IMG/VR virus record: IMGVR_UViG_3300020037_003256
Span: 155,271-219,270 of that record
Source: a virus
Lineage: Duplodnaviria; Caudoviricetes
DNA: 64,000 bases
Direction: 5' to 3' (one strand)
Made by a program: the position numbers and the translations under genes. Shown piece after piece: positions 396 to 9,124 of this stretch. The notes beneath the pieces are model-generated. The model had not been told where the DNA came from. It saw only the letters and a program-made list of their open reading frames with translations, and did not search any database. Each line of letters opens with the position of its first letter. Positions within the stretch are counted from its first letter, which is position 1.

Positions 396-2084
396 CTAAA
401 TTGAGTCTGCAGGCTCTAGCAGTCCTGAAAACGTGGAAGGTTTAGATGAACCTGTCGGCATAGACTTTGTCGAGTTCATTTCGTCTTTAGATATGATAAT
501 TCGACGACCCGGCTCTATGCCGTGCGTCTTAGAGCAGTCGATCAGGCGAGAAAATTCACCGTGTACCCGGATGATACGATGAGCCGTTGGCGGTTCGCGT
601 CGATGCTTCGTGGCCTCCCAAACGCACATTAGGTTCTCATCCGTCTTACCCGATACTACGCAAAAGTTCGCGTACTTACCTAGACTCTTAGACCCTTCTG
701 CGTCGGAGTGGTGCAGTTTAGCTGTAGGGCTCTTATTCTGCATGGCCCCAGCAAACTGGTGCATAAGACCTACGGGACACCGTAAATAGTTTCCAATATC
801 TTCGACCGCAATACGTGGCATGTTAGTCAGGATCTTACGCTGCACACTTTCGTCCATCTCGCCCATCCGGTCGACAAGCCCGGAAAGGTGATCTACCCAG
901 ATCATAATGGGATAGAGCATTGGTTTCTTGCGGAAGATACCACGAACGACGTTTGCCAGTTCAGCCATACCACCTGTACCGATCTTGTACGGGTTATCCT
1001 CGGCGTTCGTGCAATCGATGAGTAGCAGATGTTTATTTGCTACAGTCATCACTTCTTTTACACGCTTCCGCTCGTTCTTCCACGAAAACCCTTCTTTGTC
1101 CGTGGCTAGTTTATCTTTGAACTCTTCTAGCTCGTATTTGGTTGACGCCTTAGCCCCAGGATGGCTGCTGTCGTCCAGATCTTTCAGCGACGTCATTTCC
1201 CGTAACTTCTTCCACGGAACACGAGCAAGATTAGCCATTAACCGGTTACGGTATTCGGCTTTGTCTGACTCCGTGAAGCACAGAACCACAACAGGAATTA
1301 GCGGTTCGTTCTTCGCGTTACGCCGAGACTTTCCAGTTACGTAAATTTGCGCCGCATGAAGAATCAACTCTGCGGTACTATCGCACGCGGTAACGGTCTT
1401 ACACGAACCGTACGGAGCCATGAACAGCAAACACTCCCCTGGCATTAGACCGCCACCCGTTAAGGCATCAAGAGCCGAAACGCCAGTTGTAGTAATTTGA
1501 TTGTCTTTGCGTTCGTCCCAGCCCTCAGGAAAAGGAACGCCTAAATCGATTTCAGTGATGCTACGTGTAAGATCCAGCTTTTTCTGCGCTGTACCCAGTA
1601 GCTCATTGATATTGGTCGGAAGCGTGCCGTCTGCTTGTAACTTTTCAGCAAGTTCTTCCGTTATGAGTTCTTCTAATACTTCCTTACACGTGTCTACGGC
1701 CACACGCATAACGTTTTTGTTTTTGCTGATCTTCTTTCCGTGCGAAACGTCGTCCCAGGCAAAGTCCAAGAAACGATCCAGCTCTTCTCGTTCTCCGTCT
1801 GTTGTTAACTTGTCGTTCGCCGTGACTGCCTCGTGCAGTAGGCTTTCCAGTTGTGTCTTACTTGGAAGCTCACTGTATTTCTTGTGAAACTTCCGCACTT
1901 CTCGCCATAGCAGAGCATAATGCTCACCCATGGCTTTACGGCAATCCGTCACTTTAAACATTTCTGCGACTGTACTGAACGCATCGCGGTTCCGTATGAA
2001 TACGGCTAGCATTTCCTCCTTCTTAGCACTTCCGATCGGAACGCGACGTTCTGCCTCGTTATTTTTACTTTGACCCTGTGGCAT
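396..2084 (-). CDS. Replicative DnaB/RecA-fold (SF4-like) DNA helicase
   Basis: ITTTGVSALDALTGGGLMPGE, Walker A APYGSCKT, WVDHL Walker B-like, HQF motif, KHRR arginine finger. Confidence 0.8.
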   Translation of the reverse strand: MPQGQSKNNEAERRVPIGSAKKEEMLAVFIRNRDAFSTVAEMFKVTDCRKAMGEHYALLWREVRKFHKKYSELPSKTQLESLLHEAVTANDKLTTDGEREELDRFLDFAWDDVSHGKKISKNKNVMRVAVDTCKEVLEELITEELAEKLQADGTLPTNINELLGTAQKKLDLTRSITEIDLGVPFPEGWDERKDNQITTTGVSALDALTGGGLMPGECLLFMAPYGSCKTVTACDSTAELILHAAQIYVTGKSRRNAKNEPLIPVVVLCFTESDKAEYRNRLMANLARVPWKKLREMTSLKDLDDSSHPGAKASTKYELEEFKDKLATDKEGFSWKNERKRVKEVMTVANKHLLLIDCTNAEDNPYKIGTGGMAELANVVRGIFRKKPMLYPIMIWVDHLSGLVDRMGEMDESVQRKILTNMPRIAVEDIGNYLRCPVGLMHQFAGAMQNKSPTAKLHHSDAEGSKSLGKYANFCVVSGKTDENLMCVWEATKHRREPPTAHRIIRVHGEFSRLIDCSKTHGIEPGRRIIISKDEMNSTKSMPTGSSKPSTFSGLLEPADSI

Positions 2085-2094
2085 TAGTCACCTC

Positions 2095-2895
2095 TCAACT
2101 TTTACGTTCTGCCCAAAACTTCGCAAGAAGTATCGGATACAACGCTTTGCTTTGTTTCGAGAATCCCGGAGGAAGTACCGCTTTCCAGTGCCGTCTATAG
2201 AATCGGCGAGAAGACTCAAACTGCATAACGGCTTCAGGCAACAATCTGCGAGCAAGCCTACTGACATTACGTGTACCACCCGCCGAAGCAAGGCAGTAAC
2301 GAAACAACGGACTGAGCCCCAAAGCTGCACCATCGGCTATTACGTAGATCTGCGCAAATTCCTCCGAGTCTTCGTACACCATCTTTCGCACAGAGTAGTG
2401 TCGAGAAGCAATGTCTTTCTCGATTGACAGCTCTAACGCTACTTCTGCGTCTCGCTTCCCCTGTAGCTCATTCCACTTCGCAAAGTAAACATCACCTAGG
2501 AGTTGTGCAGGCTCAGGTGCACGCAAACGCTCCAATTTCAATAGCTTGAAACACTGCCGCACATACTCTTCTGGGTTTATCTTACGCGCCTCGCACCAGT
2601 CTACGATTCGTTGCCACACAGACGTCTTGGCTTTAACCACGGTAGTTTCAGCAGATTCGATCCCGTCGATATAAACGGCACCTCTGCCGTCATACGACCG
2701 CGGCGGCACATACGTGACCAACTTGCCTACCTTCAGTGTTTCCCACCTCCCTCGCTCTTGCATGTAGATTGTTTTAACCCGCCACGCCTTGATCGATTGA
2801 ACATCGACCTCGTTAGTTTCCGGTACAGGCACGCGTTCCGCGTTTGCCGGTACGAACCCTGTTGGCCTGGTTTTAGGACATAGCTTCTTCTTCAT
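2095..2895 (-). CDS. Hypothetical protein in replication module
   Basis: ORF between two helicases; start moved to ATG 2895, which has GGAG 6 nt upstream. Confidence 0.6.
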   Translation of the reverse strand: MKKKLCPKTRPTGFVPANAERVPVPETNEVDVQSIKAWRVKTIYMQERGRWETLKVGKLVTYVPPRSYDGRGAVYIDGIESAETTVVKAKTSVWQRIVDWCEARKINPEEYVRQCFKLLKLERLRAPEPAQLLGDVYFAKWNELQGKRDAEVALELSIEKDIASRHYSVRKMVYEDSEEFAQIYVIADGAALGLSPLFRYCLASAGGTRNVSRLARRLLPEAVMQFESSRRFYRRHWKAVLPPGFSKQSKALYPILLAKFWAERKS

Positions 2896-2908
2896 TGGAA
2901 GCTCCATT

Positions 2909-4456
2909 TCAACTTCTATGTCTTCGCGATCTCTTTTCCGGGAATTTTTGTACCCATTTATTTTTAGCATAATTCCTGCCACGTCCATTTGCTTTTCTGT
3001 GGGACGGTGGGTCGAACTGGTCCAGATAATCATGAACACGCCCCACAAACTTTTCTTTAGCTCCTTTTGCTATATCCTCTGCCTTTTTCTTGCGGCTGTT
3101 ACGCCCAGGTATCTGCGTGTCGTTGATAGACGAGCCGCCGCCATCACCACGAATCAGCACTTCTAGGTGTCGGAAGTCTACACCAACGTTCCACACCGTA
3201 TTTGCAATCACTTTCTTATCCAGCCCTTTGGTGAACCGTCTGGCGCGCTTGTCTAGCTTCTCCCGCGTCATATCGACCCACTGGTCCGGGAAGTCACGAC
3301 GAAACTTCGCCAGGGCTTTCTCTGATAGGCTCTGACCGGAATACGCTACTTTGTACTCCGGCAAAAGCTTAGCTAAATGCAGTACATGTTCAATCGTCTC
3401 TACCGTTATTAAGACTTGTGTGTCCGGTCCGTACTTTCTTGCGTCGGCTGCGATTAAAGAGTTGCGGTATTCGTTGGTCCAAATAGCCAGACGCTTTCGT
3501 TCCGTGTTGTCCGTAACGCCACTGGCTGGGTTATGATCCATAATGACGTCGGTCCAATGTACTTCGATTGGAACAACGATTCCGTGTTCAACGCCTTCCT
3601 CGTAAGACACACGTACGCGGATTGGTCCAAATATCGCTAAGCCGCGTAGGTCCTTATTGTCCAAACGCTGATCCCACGACGCAGAGAAGGCCCACATACG
3701 CGCATGCTCATACCTCGCGAGACCCTCAGCAAACTTATCGGCACAGGCCTCGTGCCCTTCATCCACAAACACGAAATCCGCATTAGGCCTTCCGTAGTGA
3801 ATACTGTCCGCGGACAAGCACATGACCCGCTTGCCAAGTATTTTCTTGCCGCCACCGACTATACCGACAGACGGCAGATTCATAGCCAGTTCGGGGTACA
3901 GGCGAGTATGCAAGATTGGAATTCGTTTGGTGACTACGTCGATAGTTGCTGTAGGGAACAGCATAGCCGCAAGCATGATTTGAGTACCCTTACCCCAACC
4001 CGTGTGGCAATCAATTCGCCCGTTGGGATAATCCACCATCGCCTGTAATGCTTCTTTCTGCTTATAGCGATACTTGAACCCGTCTTTCACAAGTTCGTCT
4101 AACCGGGACCAGTCCGGTTTATAAACCGTATTCAGCCGGTGTTTGTGTTGTAATTTTTCCGCCTTAGTTGCCCAGCGGACTTTTACTTCGTAACCACGGC
4201 TCTCCAGTTTCTCTTTTATCAACTCACAAAAACCGAAGGACGTAGCTACCCGTTCCTTGTGGTCATTACCGTAGCATTCCCACTCCACCAACTCCTGCGT
4301 AGGTAAGTTCAACTTGACACGCCGTGCCCGTTCATACCCGCGATAGAACACACGCTCAGAATACGTCAAATGCGGTGTAATGGTATCTCGGACACGGTCT
4401 GTCGTCGGAGAGACGACAATACGATTCCCAGACCGCAGTAGCTGTATCTGCTCCAT
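2909..4456 (-). CDS. Superfamily 2 DNA helicase (UvsW/Res-like)
   Basis: YKQ Q-motif, HTGWGKGT, DEGH, SAS, GVDF and QIPGRNSR motifs. Confidence 0.85.
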   Translation of the reverse strand: MEQIQLLRSGNRIVVSPTTDRVRDTITPHLTYSERVFYRGYERARRVKLNLPTQELVEWECYGNDHKERVATSFGFCELIKEKLESRGYEVKVRWATKAEKLQHKHRLNTVYKPDWSRLDELVKDGFKYRYKQKEALQAMVDYPNGRIDCHTGWGKGTQIMLAAMLFPTATIDVVTKRIPILHTRLYPELAMNLPSVGIVGGGKKILGKRVMCLSADSIHYGRPNADFVFVDEGHEACADKFAEGLARYEHARMWAFSASWDQRLDNKDLRGLAIFGPIRVRVSYEEGVEHGIVVPIEVHWTDVIMDHNPASGVTDNTERKRLAIWTNEYRNSLIAADARKYGPDTQVLITVETIEHVLHLAKLLPEYKVAYSGQSLSEKALAKFRRDFPDQWVDMTREKLDKRARRFTKGLDKKVIANTVWNVGVDFRHLEVLIRGDGGGSSINDTQIPGRNSRKKKAEDIAKGAKEKFVGRVHDYLDQFDPPSHRKANGRGRNYAKNKWVQKFPEKRSRRHRS

Positions 4457-4482: not shown

Positions 4483-4971
4483 TTAGTCAGCACATGCGTT
4501 CGGATTACGGCGTGGCCGTATGCTGACTACATCGAAATGTCCGTATTCTATTGGCTTTGCCGGACTCAGTCCGCGATACTGTCCGGCAATTCGCATAAGC
4601 TCCCAAAAGGCGTCGTCAGATATGTTTTCCGGAACTACGCAGTTCAGTCCGATGATGTGTCCAGGTGGAAAGGCTTCATGCAGTACAAACCGTTGCTTTC
4701 GTGTGCCCGCTACTGCGTAATACCGGCGATACCAACTACCCGCAGGCACAACGCCATCTACAGCAACATCCCAATGTATCGCTTTAACCGTGTCTTGATG
4801 TCGTCCAAGAAGTTGTGCAGCGAACCGCAAGTTAGACAGATGCCATGTCGGGAGAAACATAATCGTGCCAGTGGTTGGGTTCCTCGCGAACTCAAAACGA
4901 CCCGTCTTCTGTACTTTCACGTTGCCTAGCGAATGCTTCGTAAACTGAATCCGTACCGTCAGTTCTCGCAC
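4483..4971 (-). CDS. Putative RAMP/Cas7-like fold protein
   Basis: GTG start with GAGGGG SD. N-terminal strand ELTVRIQFTKHSLG; C-terminal HEAFPPG...AGQYRGLSPAKPIEYGHFDV resembles the RAMP G-rich loop. Confidence 0.5.
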   Translation of the reverse strand: MRELTVRIQFTKHSLGNVKVQKTGRFEFARNPTTGTIMFLPTWHLSNLRFAAQLLGRHQDTVKAIHWDVAVDGVVPAGSWYRRYYAVAGTRKQRFVLHEAFPPGHIIGLNCVVPENISDDAFWELMRIAGQYRGLSPAKPIEYGHFDVVSIRPRRNPNACAD

Positions 4972-4972
4972 G

Positions 4973-5878
4973 TCATAACCCCTCAATGTGTTGTTTAAAA
5001 GCTTGCGAGACAGTTTCGTCCCTGAAAAACCGCAGCGCATCGAACGTCACTTCTGGGTGGTAAGGTTGCACAGTCTGTAACCAGACGCGAACGATCAAAT
5101 CAACGAAGGCCTTCGTGCCTTTCAGCAAGGCCTTCTCTGTGGGCAAATTACGAACATACTCTGCCAAGAAGTCTCCCGGGGCGTCTGACCCGAAATCCAG
5201 TTTGTCGTTATACCAGGTATGTACGGCATTACAGGCGGCTTCGTACCGGTATCCTGGCCGACTTCCGGTCACCATTGCGGCCATATTCTCTTCCGTGAGG
5301 CCCAGACGTCGATACAGCCTTCCAAACCGATCGCACCGACTTTCGTGCAGGTACCAACGCGGGTCGATTATATCGCGTATTAGGCTGCAAAGCTTAGTAA
5401 CCTCTAACGAGTTTACAAATGTGCTTGGTTTCCAAACCGGATGGTAGTGCACAACCGCTCGGTCTTTGTGTGGGGTGTAAAGCATTACATAGCTGACGTA
5501 ATCCGAATTCCGCATAGCATGTGCGCGACCGTATAAGCGTCCCGTATCTGTAACACTCCACGTAGCATCCAGTACGGCTTCAGGATCGTCTAAGTCAGAC
5601 ACGATCCGTGGGCTGTACACAAGCAACTGCGTACCTTTAAGTCGCTTTTGCACCACTTTCAGCTCGAACAACCGCACAAGTAGTTCTGCGTTTGCGGGAG
5701 TACCGACAACACGGATTACCTGTACGGAGTCTAGTTCCTGTAACATGCGTTTATTCAGCAACAAACGTGTTGGAGGTAAACGCGTGTCGTACCTCAGCGA
5801 ATCTGCACCGAACCATACGGTACCGGCAGGTCCCGTATGTAGGCGAATAACTAGGTCTGTGCAGCTGGCCAAGTTCAC
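4973..5878 (-). CDS. Hypothetical protein with degenerate IS110 C-terminal (Transposase_20/Nop-like) segment
   Basis: HPVWKPSTFVNSLEVTKLCSLIRDIIDPRWY...RLYRRLGLT parallels the IS110 pattern IPGIG...LLAEIGDxxRF...LxAYxGL. No SSG catalytic loop. Confidence 0.4.
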   Translation of the reverse strand: MNLASCTDLVIRLHTGPAGTVWFGADSLRYDTRLPPTRLLLNKRMLQELDSVQVIRVVGTPANAELLVRLFELKVVQKRLKGTQLLVYSPRIVSDLDDPEAVLDATWSVTDTGRLYGRAHAMRNSDYVSYVMLYTPHKDRAVVHYHPVWKPSTFVNSLEVTKLCSLIRDIIDPRWYLHESRCDRFGRLYRRLGLTEENMAAMVTGSRPGYRYEAACNAVHTWYNDKLDFGSDAPGDFLAEYVRNLPTEKALLKGTKAFVDLIVRVWLQTVQPYHPEVTFDALRFFRDETVSQAFKQHIEGL

Positions 5879-5879
5879 G

Positions 5880-8021
5880 TTAGCCTCCTAGATCGATTAC
5901 CTGGTCAAACGCGTTTCTTAGGTCCGAATCGTGTGTGACCATAATCAACTGCCGGTTGTCTCGCACTTTAGCGGTCATAGCGGATAAAGCATCACGAAGC
6001 ATTTTACGGTTGTCGCTGTCTAAATTGGCTGTAGGCTCGTCGAGCACAAGCATACCTAACTCCCCACTCCACAGCGAGGCCACTGAGGCCCAAAAAGCAA
6101 CGGATAGCACGACACGCTGCCCTGTGCTTAAGCGATTAGCCGATTGCGGGGGTTCGCCCGGTTTGGAGACTATAAAGGACAAATCCTCACCGACTTCGAC
6201 CGAAAAAGGATCGCCGAAGAAACCCAGATGCTCGTTAATATCTCCTTCCATTCGCAGCATGTTGCTATGGGCCACGCGTCTTGGTAAACAAGCACGATGT
6301 AGTACTTCTCGAGCGCGTTCTATAATCTTAACCATTTGCCGAATCTTTTTTGTGCGACGTAGTTGTTCTTTCAGTCGCTTGAGATCCGCCTTGTTCTTGT
6401 CAATACACCGCTGAACGCCAGAGATTTTACCTTCCAAAGTGTTCACCGCGGCTGTTGCGTTTTCGTGCTCGCTCAAACGCCTGCGGGCCTTCTCTAATTT
6501 CTCCGGATCTACCGTACACGTCGCAATCGTTTCGGTTACCTCCTTCAATTGCTGTTCCAGTTGTTTGTGTTCTGTAAGTGCCACGGCTTCCGTTTTGGAA
6601 AGCTCTACAGCGCGTTTTCTCTTGGCGTCCACTTCTCGCTGCAAAGCCTGATACGCCTGAAACCATTCTTGCAGCTCGTCTTTATCTTTCTTCGGTTGCT
6701 CTACGACTTCCAGACGAGCTAGCTCTTTCGCGACCGCTTGCGTACATGCGGTATATTCTTGCTGGGCTCTTTCGTACGCTTCCAAATCTGCGTAATAGGT
6801 CTCTATGGTTTTGACTTTATCTGCCAGTCGCTTTATCTCGCCTGGAAGTGACGCGACTTGCGTTTGCAACGTCTCTAAGTAGTCCGTAAGCAGATCTACA
6901 GGAGTACGGCATGTCGGACATTCGACCGTGCCACTAGCTTGCAACGTCTCCAGCGTCTTGGTCGCGTTTGCAAGTTCGATCTCTGCTTTCGCTAGACGTT
7001 TTCTACCGATCGCTAGCTTTTCTGTGTCTTCCGGCTGCACCGGTTTCACTCTTGTTGTCAGATCGGCAGACAATTCAGCTAGCTCGTCTTCTAGCTGCTT
7101 CTTGCGCTTTATGTATGTCGCGTAATCTTTGCATTGCGTGAGCTGCTTTCGCCGTGTTTCTACGCGTTCCTCCTTTTTGTTCAAAGCAGTTAACGCCGCG
7201 TCAAACGCATTAGTGGCTTCAGCGGAGTCGTGACTTACCTTGCGTAAAGCATTTGCCGCTGCGGCTACTTGTGCTTCAAGTTGCGTACGTTTATTCTCCG
7301 CTTCACTGCGTTTTAAGTCTGCAGCAATAAGTTCGCTGTACTTTACACGGAACTTATCGTTACACAGCTTAGCTGCCGCTTCTTCTTTCTGCTTCTCCAG
7401 CTCCGCTAGTTCTTCAGTAAAAGCGGTCAACTCGGTAGACAACGTATCTGAGTTATCCACTACCTCTGCGTGTACTTCTCGATCTTTATTTAGGTAGTCC
7501 CCTAGTTGCACCCACAGCTCTTCGCAGATTTCTGTTCGACACAGAACTTGGTATGCCTTTGCTTTAGCACTAGGTATAGCCGAGATGAAATCGTAGATCT
7601 TGTCGTGTTCTTTAAACACGTAGAGATCCAGCATCTTTGCATCTACACCCAACCGGTTATTCAGTTCTTCTTGAATCTTATTTGCGTCTGTTAACCGCAC
7701 GTCGTTAACAGACAGCACGTTACCTGGTTTTGCTTTCGTGGGTTTAAAATTCCTGGTGATGTTTAAGACCTGACCGTTGTGGCAAACCTGCCCTTCGATA
7801 TAAGACTCGCTCCTATCTCCAGCCGTGTTGCGAACGATATCGGCTTTGAGTTCGCCGAATCTTTTAAAATCATTGGTGAGTAGCCCGTACATGAGATTTA
7901 TGAGCGTACTCTTACCTGCGCCGTTCTTACCGAAGACGCCTACGGACCCACGTTGTAGCTGCAAAGACAAGTCGCTAAACGGACCAACATTAACGGCCCT
8001 AAACTGTGAGATATACATCAC
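5880..8021 (-). CDS. sbcC: SbcC/Rad50-like SMC ATPase
   Basis: GKNGAGKST Walker A, coiled coils, CPTC zinc hook, LSTGQ signature, LDEPT Walker B, VTH. Confidence 0.92.
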   Translation of the reverse strand: MMYISQFRAVNVGPFSDLSLQLQRGSVGVFGKNGAGKSTLINLMYGLLTNDFKRFGELKADIVRNTAGDRSESYIEGQVCHNGQVLNITRNFKPTKAKPGNVLSVNDVRLTDANKIQEELNNRLGVDAKMLDLYVFKEHDKIYDFISAIPSAKAKAYQVLCRTEICEELWVQLGDYLNKDREVHAEVVDNSDTLSTELTAFTEELAELEKQKEEAAAKLCNDKFRVKYSELIAADLKRSEAENKRTQLEAQVAAAANALRKVSHDSAEATNAFDAALTALNKKEERVETRRKQLTQCKDYATYIKRKKQLEDELAELSADLTTRVKPVQPEDTEKLAIGRKRLAKAEIELANATKTLETLQASGTVECPTCRTPVDLLTDYLETLQTQVASLPGEIKRLADKVKTIETYYADLEAYERAQQEYTACTQAVAKELARLEVVEQPKKDKDELQEWFQAYQALQREVDAKRKRAVELSKTEAVALTEHKQLEQQLKEVTETIATCTVDPEKLEKARRRLSEHENATAAVNTLEGKISGVQRCIDKNKADLKRLKEQLRRTKKIRQMVKIIERAREVLHRACLPRRVAHSNMLRMEGDINEHLGFFGDPFSVEVGEDLSFIVSKPGEPPQSANRLSTGQRVVLSVAFWASVASLWSGELGMLVLDEPTANLDSDNRKMLRDALSAMTAKVRDNRQLIMVTHDSDLRNAFDQVIDLGG

Positions 8022-9124
8022 TGCTCTCCAAGAAATTCGCTACGCCATTTCGCGAATTCCACTTCTGGGTTGTTTGTCTGCAGTAAACGCGATACCAAGT
8101 CGTATGCTTGTGGCTCTTCCTCCTTGTTCAGTTCTTCCGGCAGTACCGACAATGGCGTTACTGCGTCTTGTTTACTTCGCTTCGCAGCAGCATAAGCTTT
8201 TACTTTTTCTTCGTTAGGTATCGCCTTGAAATGCAGGATACTGCGGGACTCTGCTATACGCCGAACCCGTCTGACCACGTCAGCCAGCTTCGCATGAAAA
8301 CTCACGCGTAAACGTGGTTTGTGCAGTGCTTGCGGTAGTTCGAGCTCGTTGGCTGCCTTCTCCGCTGCCGCCAACGTGTTTGACAGCTTAGATACGAACT
8401 CATTGACTTCCGCTTCCTGCGTTAACAATGAAGAATCAATCATCAGACGGGACTTTAATTTGTGCTTCGTAAAAGTACCGTCTGAATGGAACATCGCGTA
8501 ATGGTGTGAATCTGGCTCGGTAATATCCTGCTGCGTCGTCGCACCAGTACTCAACACAGCCATTAAGTTACCACCGGCATTTTTATGCGGTTCAAGTTTC
8601 CACGCATGTAAATCACCGGTCTGCATAAACTTGATATGTGCGGGCACCTGGGCAAAGCTTCCTTGCGGAGCGGCCCGTTCTCCCATCCAGTTGGACCAAA
8701 CTTGGTGCGCAACCAGAAACCTTACTTTCTCGGGTATCGCGTCCAGTTCTTGCTGCAACTTAGCGAACGGTTGCCAGTCCAACCCGTAAAAATGAAACCC
8801 ACCGTAGGTAACTATCTTCTTGTGGATATGCGTTGCATGATTGTGTGCACTTAACCACGGTGGGTCGTCGAAGTCATGCTGCCCCTGCGTATATAGGACA
8901 GCAACACCAGCTTCGGCGCATCGCTCAATTTGCTGGCATAAAAACGATATGGTTCTGGAACGGTTAGATTGTTTATCCAGCAAATCGCCAGCCAGCATAA
9001 CGTAATCGACAGCGTTATCTAGCGCTGCATCAATGAGCTGTACAAAAGCGTATTCTTCGTCCGGTTGTTTATTGCTCAAATGCGTATCGGACGCATGCAA
9101 ACCTAGCGGTCGTATTGTAGGCAT
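8018..9124 (-). CDS. sbcD: SbcD/Mre11-like metallophosphoesterase nuclease
   Basis: SDTHL, AGDLLD, GQHD, AHQ and GDLH motifs; overlaps sbcC by 4 bp. Confidence 0.88.
   Translation of the reverse strand: MPTIRPLGLHASDTHLSNKQPDEEYAFVQLIDAALDNAVDYVMLAGDLLDKQSNRSRTISFLCQQIERCAEAGVAVLYTQGQHDFDDPPWLSAHNHATHIHKKIVTYGGFHFYGLDWQPFAKLQQELDAIPEKVRFLVAHQVWSNWMGERAAPQGSFAQVPAHIKFMQTGDLHAWKLEPHKNAGGNLMAVLSTGATTQQDITEPDSHHYAMFHSDGTFTKHKLKSRLMIDSSLLTQEAEVNEFVSKLSNTLAAAEKAANELELPQALHKPRLRVSFHAKLADVVRRVRRIAESRSILHFKAIPNEEKVKAYAAAKRSKQDAVTPLSVLPEELNKEEEPQAYDLVSRLLQTNNPEVEFAKWRSEFLGEQ

What the first reader, a model, noticed from the sequence alone, without database searches (positions are those of the whole stretch)
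4483..5878. Adjacent Cas7/RAMP-like and IS110/Nop-like genes inside the recombination operon, without a CRISPR array
Seen: two genes separated by 1 bp, between sbcC and an SF2 helicase. The 162-aa protein has the RAMP-like layout: N-terminal strand, F.R...G.I......SNLR, then E.FPPG..., and AG.Y.GLSP....YG.FDV. The 301-aa protein has a segment resembling the IS110 C-terminal region but lacks the catalytic SSG loop and any IS context. Established: RAMPs are CRISPR RNA-binding folds, and the IS110 RNA-binding region is related to the Nop domain used by RNA-guided TIGR-Tas proteins. Inference: two domesticated RNA-binding folds beside a nuclease and helicase could form an undescribed RNA-guided or RNA-assisted DNA transaction module. 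The structured RNAs at 39.2 and 42.6 kb are possible but unproven partners. No repeat array is adjacent.
Basis: inference. Interest (0 to 1): 0.8.

Follow-up and report, generated by a model that had tools for sequence, protein, structure and literature searches.

The report
Guide-less RAMP and Nop-like phage pair
A giant phage has two adjacent genes in its DNA-repair/replication operon whose predicted folds match proteins that normally hold guide RNAs (a mini Cas7/Vipr-type RAMP and a dead-RuvC plus Nop-type protein like TasR/IS110), yet the genome has no guide-RNA array, so they probably bind nucleic acid in a different, undescribed way.

Summary
Two minus-strand genes, 162 aa (4483-4971) and 301 aa (4973-5878), lie 1 nt apart between an SbcC-like gene and an SF2 helicase.

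Both fold guesses hold up.
- **162-aa protein:** a confident single-RRM RAMP. Its top solved-structure matches are Cas7/Csm3/Cmr4-type subunits. Its G-loop is homologous to the phage Vipr RAMPs described in 2026 preprints.
- **301-aa protein:** the only full-length matches are TIGR-TasR and IS110 recombinases. The RuvC site is degenerate, and no catalytic serine is conserved.

It is not a canonical VIPR, TIGR or CRISPR system.
- The 98%-complete 219-kb genome has no GGY/NN, TIGR-like or CRISPR-like array.
- Vipr's guanine-reading Asp is an invariant Pro here.
- Four related phage contigs carry a separate, true Vipr next to vrRNA arrays, in addition to this RAMP.

The pair sits at a fixed position (SbcD-SbcC-p301-RAMP-helicase) in a large clade of uncultured jumbo phages. 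The RAMP has been lost repeatedly and almost never occurs without p301.

My best reading (about 45%) is an array-less nucleic-acid-binding accessory complex of the recombination machinery. A cryptic guided system remains possible. I call it a new variant of a known kind. The scan had not noted this family on other DNA.

The parts
4483..4971 (-). Mini-RAMP gene (162 aa, GTG start): a single RRM core with a glycine-rich loop, related to Vipr.
   Evidence: AF2 model has pLDDT 94.6. All listed Foldseek PDB hits (100 with E<=0.001) are Cas7/Csm3/Cmr-type RAMP subunits, best 6s6b_I at E 9.5e-7. VIA-align gives Z 11.4 (rmsd 3.0, 151 aligned), and the top 28 are all CRISPR RAMPs. BFVD top hits are viral RAMPs of 194-252 aa. 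The start is fixed by homologue N-termini.
4528..4587 (-). Coding stretch for the end of helix 2, the G-loop and the start of the last strand (residues 129-148: A-G-Q-Y-R-G-L-S-P-A-K-P...Y-G-H-F-D-V). This is the only part with sequence-level homology to Vipr.
   Evidence: hhalign of A2 against the array-adjacent Viprs (A5): probability 94%, E 1.4e-7, 35 columns. Against SUSP1 Vipr: probability 77%, E 2e-5. The Vipr model's only other hit in 16 related contigs is this region of the module RAMP. The PDB profile hit to 36pp_D 'SUSP1 Vipr protein' has E 0.5.
4973..5878 (-). p301 gene (301 aa): a RuvC/YqgF-like N-terminal domain (about residues 9-133, nt 5480-5854) plus a helical Nop/Tnp-like domain (about residues 134-300, nt 4979-5479).
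   Evidence: AF2 model has pLDDT 94.8. The only full-length matches are TIGR-TasR 9mty_B (Z 9.8, 224 aligned), IS621 8wt6_C (Z 8.1, 225 aligned) and ISCro4 (Z 7.7). TasH 21kl_A matches residues 132-291 (Z 8.5, rmsd 3.0). Catalytic site is degenerate: the strand-1 Asp is present in 63% of 128 sequences (Gly here), Asn63 in 95% at the spot where I expect the RuvC Glu (placed from secondary structure and my knowledge of RuvC), and no Ser is conserved at 80% or more.
5880..8021 (-). SbcC/Rad50-like ATPase. Its stop is followed by one base and then the GTG of p301.
   Evidence: Pfam AAA_15, SMC_N and SbcC_Walker_B; PHROG 77 at E 2e-43. Junction read.
8018..9124 (-). SbcD/Mre11-like phosphoesterase. 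It overlaps the SbcC start by 4 nt.
   Evidence: Pfam Metallophos E 2.7e-8; PHROG 100 (SbcD-like) E 1.5e-5.
2909..4456 (-). SF2 helicase, 26 nt downstream of the RAMP gene, with its own AGGAG ribosome-binding site.
   Evidence: PHROG 16 'DNA helicase' E 2e-27. Weak XPB-like match in PDB sequences. Syntenic in every related locus.
396..3048 (-). Conserved 317-aa ORF of unknown function (2095-3048, start uncertain) and a DnaB-like helicase (396-2084). These are the downstream end of the conserved module.
   Evidence: PHROG 19 'DnaB-like' E 1e-16. Both are conserved in order in 33-36 of 36 loci. A Pol A gene lies just upstream of the window.

Best explanation
The two genes encode a pair of nucleic-acid-binding proteins recruited into the SbcCD-helicase recombination/replication operon of a large clade of uncultured jumbo phages.

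The 162-aa protein is a minimal RAMP, distantly related to the phage Vipr proteins. I infer that it binds a single-stranded nucleic acid (RNA or DNA) along helix 1 and the G-loop. I also infer that it oligomerises on that strand as Cas7 and Vipr do, but without reading a GGY repeat.

The 301-aa protein is a catalytically degenerate RuvC-like domain fused to a Nop/Tnp-type helical domain, the architecture of TasR, IS110 and (dead-RuvC) Nop5. I infer that it is the obligatory partner that holds or loads the RAMP and couples it to SbcCD and/or the helicase.

The complex is an accessory, dispensable part of the recombination machinery. It is not a programmable, array-fed interference system.

Shown: the folds, the G-loop homology, the absence of arrays, the loss of catalytic and GGY-reading residues, the fixed synteny, and the loss pattern.

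Inferred: nucleic-acid binding, oligomerisation, physical pairing, and the link to SbcCD and the helicase.
For: Folds. The RAMP and RuvC+Nop-type folds are supported as cited under parts.

Link to Vipr.
- G-loop homology to Vipr is found in both directions.
- The most conserved RAMP residues lie at the start of helix 1 (W43, H44, N47) and in the G-loop (G130, G134, S136, P137, P140, G144). These are the RNA-binding surfaces of Vipr (doi 10.64898/2026.04.26.720927).

No guide array.
- No GGY/NN, NNNGG or period-5-G tract exceeds chance in the 98%-complete genome. The same scan recovers all four SUSP1 vrRNAs.
- No interspaced array of CRISPR or TIGR type is present, and Rfam finds nothing in the window.
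- Seven related genomes that are at least 90% complete have no 5-unit GGY/NN run.
- Full-length Vipr genes occur only in the four contigs that have arrays, alongside this RAMP.

Synteny and coupling.
- p301 comes immediately before the RAMP in 35 of 36 loci, usually 2-60 nt apart.
- The order SbcD-SbcC-p301-RAMP-helicase-p317-DnaB-like is conserved.
- Junctions with 1-nt gaps or overlaps suggest translational coupling.

Rate and dependence.
- The RAMP is the slowest-evolving protein of the module: in most RAMP-anchored loci it is 47-60% identical (35-42% in the most distant), against 24-42% for SbcC and 33-55% for the helicase in the same loci. This is not typical of conflict genes.
- The RAMP occurs with p301 in 50 of 51 loci, while p301 occurs alone in 18.
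Against: - No binding, complex or ligand was shown.
- The RAMP was lost at least six times on the helicase tree and is absent from one 100%-complete relative. It is therefore not a core replisome part, and patchy presence is also what accessory conflict systems show.
- Both folds are hallmarks of guide-RNA effectors.
- TasR and Vipr relatives are typically phage weapons against competing mobile elements.
- A single non-repetitive guide RNA would escape every scan I ran.
- The p301 structural matches are moderate (Z 8-10, rmsd about 6 A over the full length) and have no sequence-profile support.
- The genome is a linear contig estimated 98% complete, so a small missing piece cannot be excluded.
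Confidence: 0.45

Rival explanations
1. A cryptic RNA-guided (or DNA-guided) targeting system. The RAMP polymerises on a guide that is not a recognisable repeat array, for example a single non-repetitive RNA, a processed phage transcript, or guides supplied by another element. p301 binds a handle through its Nop-like domain. The adjacent helicase and SbcCD act as effectors, in the way Cas3 or DinG serve type I and type IV CRISPR systems and helicase or nuclease Vap proteins serve some VIPR types.
For: - Both folds are used almost exclusively to hold guide RNAs.
- The G-loop is homologous to Vipr.
- VIPR types III-V carry nuclease or helicase accessory genes, and some types use only one vrRNA or degenerate NNNNG repeats (PMC13142463).
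- TasR proteins with inactivated RuvC exist (PMC12045711).
- The pair is dispensable and has been lost repeatedly, as accessory conflict systems are.
Against: - No pentanucleotide periodicity, TIGR-like or CRISPR-like array exists in 219 kb, nor any 5-unit GGY/NN run in seven near-complete relatives.
- There is no long non-coding flank: the spacers are 1 nt and 26 nt.
- Vipr's essential D177 is an invariant Pro, and the H17 equivalent varies.
- The RAMP evolves more slowly than its neighbours, and its position in the operon is fixed.
- Phages with real VIPR loci keep this pair as well.
Confidence: 0.25
2. A fold relic without a nucleic-acid role. The two proteins keep RAMP and RuvC/Nop-like shapes but act as protein-protein adaptors or regulators of SbcCD or the helicase, for example controlling nuclease access to phage DNA ends.
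For: - Catalytic and base-reading residues are lost in both proteins.
- p301 always directly follows SbcC, and it often occurs without the RAMP.
- Dead RuvC/YqgF-like domains serve as scaffolds in Spt6/Tex, which are among the N-domain matches.
Against: - The best-conserved RAMP positions are the ones that contact RNA in Vipr and Cas7.
- The G-loop motif is retained across the family at a conservation hard to explain by fold stability alone.
Confidence: 0.15
3. A counter-weapon. This reading treats the RAMP as guide-less and proposes that it soaks up or hijacks guides made by others (host crRNAs or rival phages' vrRNAs), acting as an anti-CRISPR or anti-VIPR decoy.
For: - Phages that carry vrRNAs without Vipr, and satellites that redirect VIPR, show that such cross-talk exists (doi 10.64898/2026.10.15.759431).
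- Some sister phages carry VIPR loci.
Against: - The GGY-reading residues are not kept.
- The gene sits in a translationally coupled replication/recombination operon and is tied to p301.
- Slow evolution is unusual for decoys.
Confidence: 0.07

Closest known systems
Vipr proteins of VIPR systems (Viral Interference Programmable Repeat; PMC13142463; doi 10.64898/2026.04.26.720927)
   Same: - Phage-encoded, minimal single-RRM RAMP of 160-200 aa, with no cas genes and no CRISPR array.
- Homologous helix-2/G-loop/last-strand motif (A-G-x3-G-[LV]-[SG]-x-[WA]-[KR]-P...F/Y-G-x-F-x-V).
- Followed or preceded by one conserved accessory gene.
- Some VIPR types include helicase or nuclease partners.
   Different: - There is no vrRNA: no GGY/NN or related pentanucleotide tract in the genome.
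- The essential G-reading Asp (D177) is an invariant Pro.
- Sequence similarity is limited to about 35 columns, whereas true Viprs in sister phages align full-length to SUSP1 Vipr (E 2e-22).
- There are no long non-coding flanks.
- Its position inside a replication/recombination operon is fixed.
- It coexists with true Vipr in four contigs.
Cas7-family backbone subunits (Csm3, Cmr4, Csf2, Cas7 domains of Cas7-11/gRAMP)
   Same: RRM core plus G-loop, with Z 9-11.4 over about 150 residues. These are the top matches in the PDB.
   Different: - About half the size, with no second RRM or large insertions.
- No cas neighbours and no array.
- Sequence identity is 6-17%.
TIGR-TasR (PDB 9mty) and TasH Nop domain (21kl)
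   Same: N-terminal RuvC-like domain plus C-terminal Nop-type helical domain in about 300 aa. This is the best full-length structural match (Z 9.8), and TasH matches the C-terminal domain at Z 8.5. TasR variants with a dead RuvC are known.
   Different: - No TIGR array is present.
- No match to the Nop/IS110 Pfam profiles used to mine Tas proteins.
- The RuvC site is degenerate family-wide.
- It is always placed after sbcC.
IS110-family bridge-RNA recombinases (IS621, ISCro4)
   Same: The same two-domain architecture. Full-length matches at Z 7.7-8.1 over about 225 residues.
   Different: - DEDD is not intact and no catalytic Ser is conserved.
- No bridge-RNA locus and no element ends.
- It is vertically inherited at one genomic position.
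Nop5/Nop56/58 of box C/D RNPs
   Same: A dead RuvC-like N-domain plus a Nop domain used as an RNA-binding scaffold, as described in PMC12045711. This is a functional analogy for a non-catalytic adaptor.
   Different: No fibrillarin or L7Ae partners were looked for. Nop5 did not appear among the listed structural matches.

Membership tests
RAMP superfamily (fold level) | Ferredoxin/RRM-like core | tested here: met
   AF2 pLDDT 94.6. All listed Foldseek hits (100 with E<=0.001) and the top 28 VIA-align hits (Z 7.2-11.4) are CRISPR RAMP subunits.
RAMP superfamily (fold level) | Glycine-rich loop before the last strand | tested here: met
   G130, G134 and G144 are invariant in 115 sequences. The region aligns to the Vipr G-loop.
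RAMP superfamily (fold level) | Thumb hairpin | tested here: inconclusive
   The model has strands at 80-86 and 93-101 between core strands. No residue-level superposition was available.
CRISPR-Cas Cas7 | Association with a CRISPR array and other cas genes | tested here: not met
   No interspaced repeats in 219 kb. The neighbours are SbcCD and helicases.
VIPR (Vipr) | vrRNA with 9-16 GGY/NN (or NNNGG/YNNNG/NNNNG) pentanucleotide repeats in the locus | tested here: not met
   Nothing above chance in the window or the genome. The same scan finds the four SUSP1 vrRNAs and the arrays in L011.
VIPR (Vipr) | Full-length sequence homology to Vipr | tested here: inconclusive
   Only 35-36 columns (the G-loop) align: probability 94% and 77%. 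True Viprs of sister phages give probability 99.5%, E 2e-22 over 184 columns. Solved Vipr structures did not appear among the fold-search matches, so no structural comparison was made.
VIPR (Vipr) | GGY-reading residues (H17, R138, D177, W178, R179 of SUSP1 Vipr) | tested here: not met
   D177 aligns to the invariant P137. W178 aligns to Ala here (Trp in many relatives). R179 aligns to K139. The H17 equivalent is variable. R138 was not alignable.
VIPR (Vipr) | Long non-coding flanks and a two-gene vipr-vap locus | tested here: not met
   Spacers are 1 nt and 26 nt, and the genes are embedded in a seven-gene operon. p301 could be viewed as a vap analogue.
IS110 transposase | RuvC-like domain plus Tnp/Nop-like domain | tested here: met
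   IS621 Z 8.1 (225 aligned) and ISCro4 Z 7.7 (227 aligned).
IS110 transposase | Intact DEDD and catalytic Ser | tested here: not met
   The strand-1 Asp is present in 63% (Gly in this protein). Asn63 (95%) sits where I expect the Glu (placed from secondary structure). No Ser is conserved at 80% or more in the C-terminal domain.
IS110 transposase | Pfam PF01548/PF02371 match and mobile-element context | tested here: not met
   No Pfam hit for this protein. One of 128 relatives hits Transposase_20 at E 0.028. Synteny is fixed in about 100 loci.
TIGR-Tas (TasR) | Nop domain with an N-terminal RuvC | tested here: met
   9mty_B Z 9.8, 224 aligned, residues 9-296. 21kl_A Z 8.5 for residues 132-291. 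This is structural evidence only, with no profile hit to PDB sequences.
TIGR-Tas (TasR) | Adjacent TIGR array (two alternating 8-12-nt repeats with 9-nt spacers, 5-15 units) | tested here: not met
   No 8-mer recurs four or more times at constant 20-80-nt spacing in the genome. TRF finds nothing of that period near the locus.

The most novel reading that the evidence does not exclude
The RAMP-p301 pair is a third, array-less kind of phage nucleic-acid-guided machine. It would combine a RAMP filament with a Nop-type handle binder and use SbcCD and the helicase as effectors, with guides taken from transcripts or replication intermediates. Alternatively, it is a surviving example of what RAMP and RuvC-Nop proteins did in phage DNA replication/recombination before they were turned into VIPR, CRISPR, TIGR and IS110 guide systems.
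Probability: 0.2. Interest if true: 0.9.

Novelty: new variant of a known kind. Interest (0 to 1): 0.72.

Why it matters
RAMP and Nop/RuvC-type proteins are the protein chassis of CRISPR class 1, VIPR, TIGR-Tas, IS110 bridge recombinases and box C/D RNPs. Here the two chassis sit side by side in hundreds of jumbo-phage lineages, inside the SbcCD-helicase operon, with no guide array and with the base-reading and catalytic residues gone.

That gives a concrete and abundant test case for two questions:
- What do these folds do when they are not programmable?
- Did guide-RNA systems grow out of phage replication/recombination proteins, or did this clade domesticate a weapon?

It also marks a Vipr-related family that array-based VIPR searches would not report as a system.

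Tried and rejected
- **Family libraries.** Pfam and PHROGs on both proteins gave nothing. Pfam on all 128 and 115 family members gave noise only.
- **Phage GenBank collection.** DNA and protein searches gave no match.
- **PDB sequence profiles.** No hit for p301. For the RAMP, only a weak hit to SUSP1 Vipr, which led to the VIPR papers.
- **Foldseek PDB for p301.** No hit at E<=0.001. The top Cas1 rows have TM 0.12-0.17 and I rejected them.
- **ESM Atlas.** Nothing for p301. For the RAMP, only unnamed viral clusters.
- **Fused forms.** None found for the RAMP.
- **vrRNA search.** The exact GGYNN, GG-period-5 and single-G period-5 scans of the genome were all at chance level. One 10/12 hit inside the p301 coding region is within the shuffle expectation.
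- **TIGR/CRISPR-like arrays.** None.
- **Hairpins at 39.2 and 42.6 kb as partners.** Rejected, because the GGTGCGGTG words are base-paired stem halves.
- **ORFs next to the L011 array.** The 176-aa and 225-aa ORFs after the array are not RAMP-like. The Vipr is the ORF before the array.
- **p301-to-helicase gaps in RAMP-less relatives as ncRNA.** Two of three folded gaps show no excess structure (z -1.4, +0.2) and one is modest (z -2.7). All three contain TTGAC...TAGAAT promoter-like sites.
- **Archaeal Mre11-Rad50 partner nuclease NurA as a model for p301.** Considered, but NurA is not among the structural matches listed, so the idea is not supported.
- **RAMP as the missing SSB.** No PF00436 SSB is present in the genome, but the RAMP is absent from a complete relative. 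I keep this only as a loose idea.
Full report
**What is there.**

All genes in this part of the window are on the minus strand. The 301-aa ORF (5878->4973, GTG start) ends with TGA. One base later the 162-aa ORF begins with GTG (4971->4483). The SbcC->p301 junction has the same form: TAA, one base, GTG.

The longer 185-aa reading of the small gene is wrong. 23 homologues start M-R-E-L-T-V-R exactly at the GTG.

Upstream lie an SbcD-like phosphoesterase and an SbcC-like ATPase. Downstream lie an SF2 helicase, a conserved 317-aa ORF and a DnaB-like helicase. A Pol A gene sits just before the window.

The window is the last 64 kb of a 219,270-bp linear virus contig estimated 98% complete.

**The small protein is a RAMP.**

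It has no Pfam or PHROG match, but it has 119 homologue clusters at 46-74% identity, all unnamed. An alignment of 115 sequences gave an AlphaFold2 model with pLDDT 94.6.

- Foldseek against the PDB gave 100 hits at E<=0.001. All those listed are Cas7-type subunits of type III, IV and VII CRISPR effector complexes (best 6s6b_I, E 9.5e-7).
- The Foldseek-independent VIA-align search gave Z 11.4 (rmsd 3.0 A, 151 of 162 residues aligned). Its top 28 entries are all CRISPR RAMPs.
- In the viral predicted-structure library the top hits are viral RAMPs of 194-252 aa.

**Link to VIPR.**

A profile of the family gave a weak hit (E 0.5) to PDB chain 36pp_D, 'SUSP1 Vipr protein'. This led me to three 2026 preprints.

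As described there, VIPR systems are phage loci with three parts (PMC13142463):
- a minimal RAMP (Vipr);
- an accessory gene (vap);
- vrRNAs made of 9-16 GGY/NN pentanucleotide repeats plus a 3' tail.

Vipr forms a filament on the vrRNA. H17, R138, D177, W178 and R179 read the GGY bases, and D177 and R138 are essential (doi 10.64898/2026.04.26.720927).

I located the SUSP1 locus in the phage collection. My GGYNN scan recovers its four vrRNAs, one upstream and three downstream as published.

**This genome has no vrRNA or other array.**

- The same scan finds one chance-level 4-unit run in the window and four in the whole genome.
- Relaxed scans (GG at period 5; any G at period 5, 10 of 12 units) are at or below the shuffle expectation.
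- No 8-mer recurs four or more times at constant 20-80-nt spacing, so there is no CRISPR-like or TIGR-like array.
- Rfam finds nothing in the window.
- The hairpins at 39.2 and 42.6 kb contain GGTGCGGTG only as base-paired stem halves. This agrees with the earlier follow-up that read them as hairpin-plus-terminator elements.

**Sister phages separate this RAMP from true Vipr.**

Among 36 related contigs, four (L011, L004, L022, L026) carry large vrRNA-like array clusters 7-32 kb from the RAMP gene.

- Each cluster is flanked by a second RAMP gene of 224-279 aa.
- These four proteins align full-length to SUSP1 Vipr (hhalign probability 99.5%, E 2e-22).
- A model built from them finds full-length matches only in those four contigs. 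In 16 other contigs its only hit (E 1e-5 to 1e-3) is the G-loop region of the module RAMP.
- In the other direction, the module-RAMP profile ranks the four Viprs first among all ORFs near the arrays. It aligns to them with probability 94% (E 1.4e-7), but over only 35 columns: helix 2, G-loop and last strand.
- In that stretch Vipr's G-V-G-D177-W-R-P corresponds to G-L-S-P137-(W/A)-K-P here, with the Pro invariant.
- None of seven relatives that are at least 90% complete has a 5-unit GGY/NN run, and this genome has no second RAMP.

Conclusion: this is a Vipr-related but distinct RAMP family that does not use GGY/NN vrRNAs.

**The 301-aa protein.**

A word-indexed search found two relatives. A full HMM search with a three-sequence profile found 844 clusters with E<=0.001. 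A 128-sequence alignment gave a model with pLDDT 94.8.

- Foldseek found nothing convincing.
- VIA-align found one clear pattern. The only full-length matches are TIGR-TasR (9mty_B, Z 9.8, 224 residues aligned), IS621 (Z 8.1, 225) and ISCro4 (Z 7.7, 227).
- TasH's Nop domain matches residues 132-291 (Z 8.5, rmsd 3.0).
- All other matches cover only the N-terminal RNase H-like domain: Spt6/Tex YqgF, RuvX, RuvC, poxvirus resolvase, TnpB/Cas12 RuvC.

The catalytic site is degenerate.
- The strand-1 Asp is present in 63% of sequences and is Gly here.
- Asn63 (95%) sits where I expect the RuvC glutamate. I placed this from the model's secondary structure and my knowledge of RuvC, not from a superposition.
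- No Ser is conserved at 80% or more in the C-terminal domain.
- The invariant residues (H146-P147, D172-P-R-W175, W222, W266) lie in the helical domain.
- This holds whether or not a RAMP gene follows.

There is no sequence-profile support, so the relation to IS110 and Tas rests on structure alone. The Tas mining of PMC12045711 used Pfam/COG profiles that this family does not hit. That paper does not mention RAMP, Cas7 or SbcC partners.

**Distribution.**

In the 36 RAMP-anchored loci:
- The order SbcD-SbcC-p301-RAMP-helicase-p317-DnaB-like is conserved.
- p301 comes immediately before the RAMP in 35 of 36, mostly 2-60 nt apart.
- The RAMP is the best-conserved protein of the module.

In 80 helicase-anchored loci with 30-55% helicase identity:
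- The RAMP is present in 51 and p301 in 68.
- After collapsing near-duplicates there are 62 groups: 36 with both, 15 with p301 only, 1 with the RAMP only, and 10 with neither (three of these are cut by contig ends).
- On a quick maximum-likelihood helicase tree, RAMP-less lineages are nested inside RAMP-bearing clades. At least six changes are forced by well-supported branches, and a p301-only phage is sister to this window's clade.
- A 100%-complete relative has no RAMP anywhere.

So the RAMP is dispensable and has been lost repeatedly. It almost never occurs without p301, which suggests it works through p301.

**Interpretation.**

The evidence shows six things:
- the two folds;
- homology to Vipr restricted to the G-loop;
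- loss of the base-reading and catalytic residues;
- absence of any known guide array;
- a fixed, apparently translationally coupled position between SbcC and a helicase;
- slow evolution combined with repeated loss.

My most likely reading (about 0.45) is an array-less nucleic-acid-binding accessory complex of the recombination/replication machinery. In it, RAMP protomers bind a single strand through helix 1 and the G-loop, and p301 acts as a non-catalytic RuvC/Nop-type adaptor.

A cryptic guided system with a non-repetitive guide, using the helicase and SbcCD as effectors, remains a serious rival (about 0.25). Dispensability and the pedigree of both folds favour it. The missing guide, the missing reading residues, the lack of non-coding flanks and the slow evolution count against it. 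Pure protein-adaptor and decoy readings are less likely.

**Limits.**

- No Vipr structure appeared among the fold-search matches, so Vipr was compared by sequence only.
- The tree is the quick search, not the finished careful one.
- I could not determine whether the VIPR authors' 667 systems include this family. Their text says all seven types have vrRNAs, which this one lacks.

Noticed in passing
L038:4472-6152; L039:2851-5979; L040:3213-5421; L041:3978-5793 (minus strand as fetched): Four related jumbo-phage contigs carry apparent VIPR loci. Each has a full-length Vipr homologue (224-279 aa, hhalign E 2e-22 to SUSP1 Vipr) next to clusters of 5-15 GGY/NN tracts of up to 12 units. All tracts are on the gene strand. 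L039 and L040 also share a 174-180-aa gene between the Vipr and the arrays, which is a possible vap.
   Followed up: partly
L090:6554-6814, L098:6632-6814, L101:6717-6904: In relatives that lack the RAMP gene, the 180-260-nt gap between p301 and the helicase holds a conserved TTGAC-N17-TAGAAT promoter-like site rather than a structured RNA (fold z-scores -2.7, +0.2, -1.4).
   Followed up: partly
window 4969-4975 and 5876-5882: Both junctions (SbcC->p301 and p301->RAMP) have the same form: stop codon, one C, GTG start. SbcD/SbcC overlap by 4 nt. This suggests a translationally coupled SbcD-SbcC-p301-RAMP unit.
   Followed up: no
G000:C1:150494-152366 (about 3-5 kb before the window start): The Pol A match is split. 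A strong match sits in a 1031-aa open frame, and a second weak piece downstream has one in-frame TAG. This could be a split polymerase, an insertion or chance.
   Followed up: no
L010:5849-8492 and L115:6511-7143: These are exceptions to the pairing. In L010 the RAMP directly follows SbcC with no p301. In L115 a divergent RAMP precedes the helicase with no p301 or SbcC in the 6.5 kb upstream.
   Followed up: partly
whole genome G000: There is no PF00436-type SSB, and only a weak RecA-like match at 146.5 kb, in a 98%-complete 219-kb phage genome.
   Followed up: no
window 4483-4971 compared with loci L002-L036: In most RAMP-anchored loci the RAMP is 47-60% identical between phages, while SbcC (24-42%) and, in most loci, the helicase (33-55%) are less conserved. 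It is the slowest-evolving gene of the module, yet it is repeatedly lost.
   Followed up: partly
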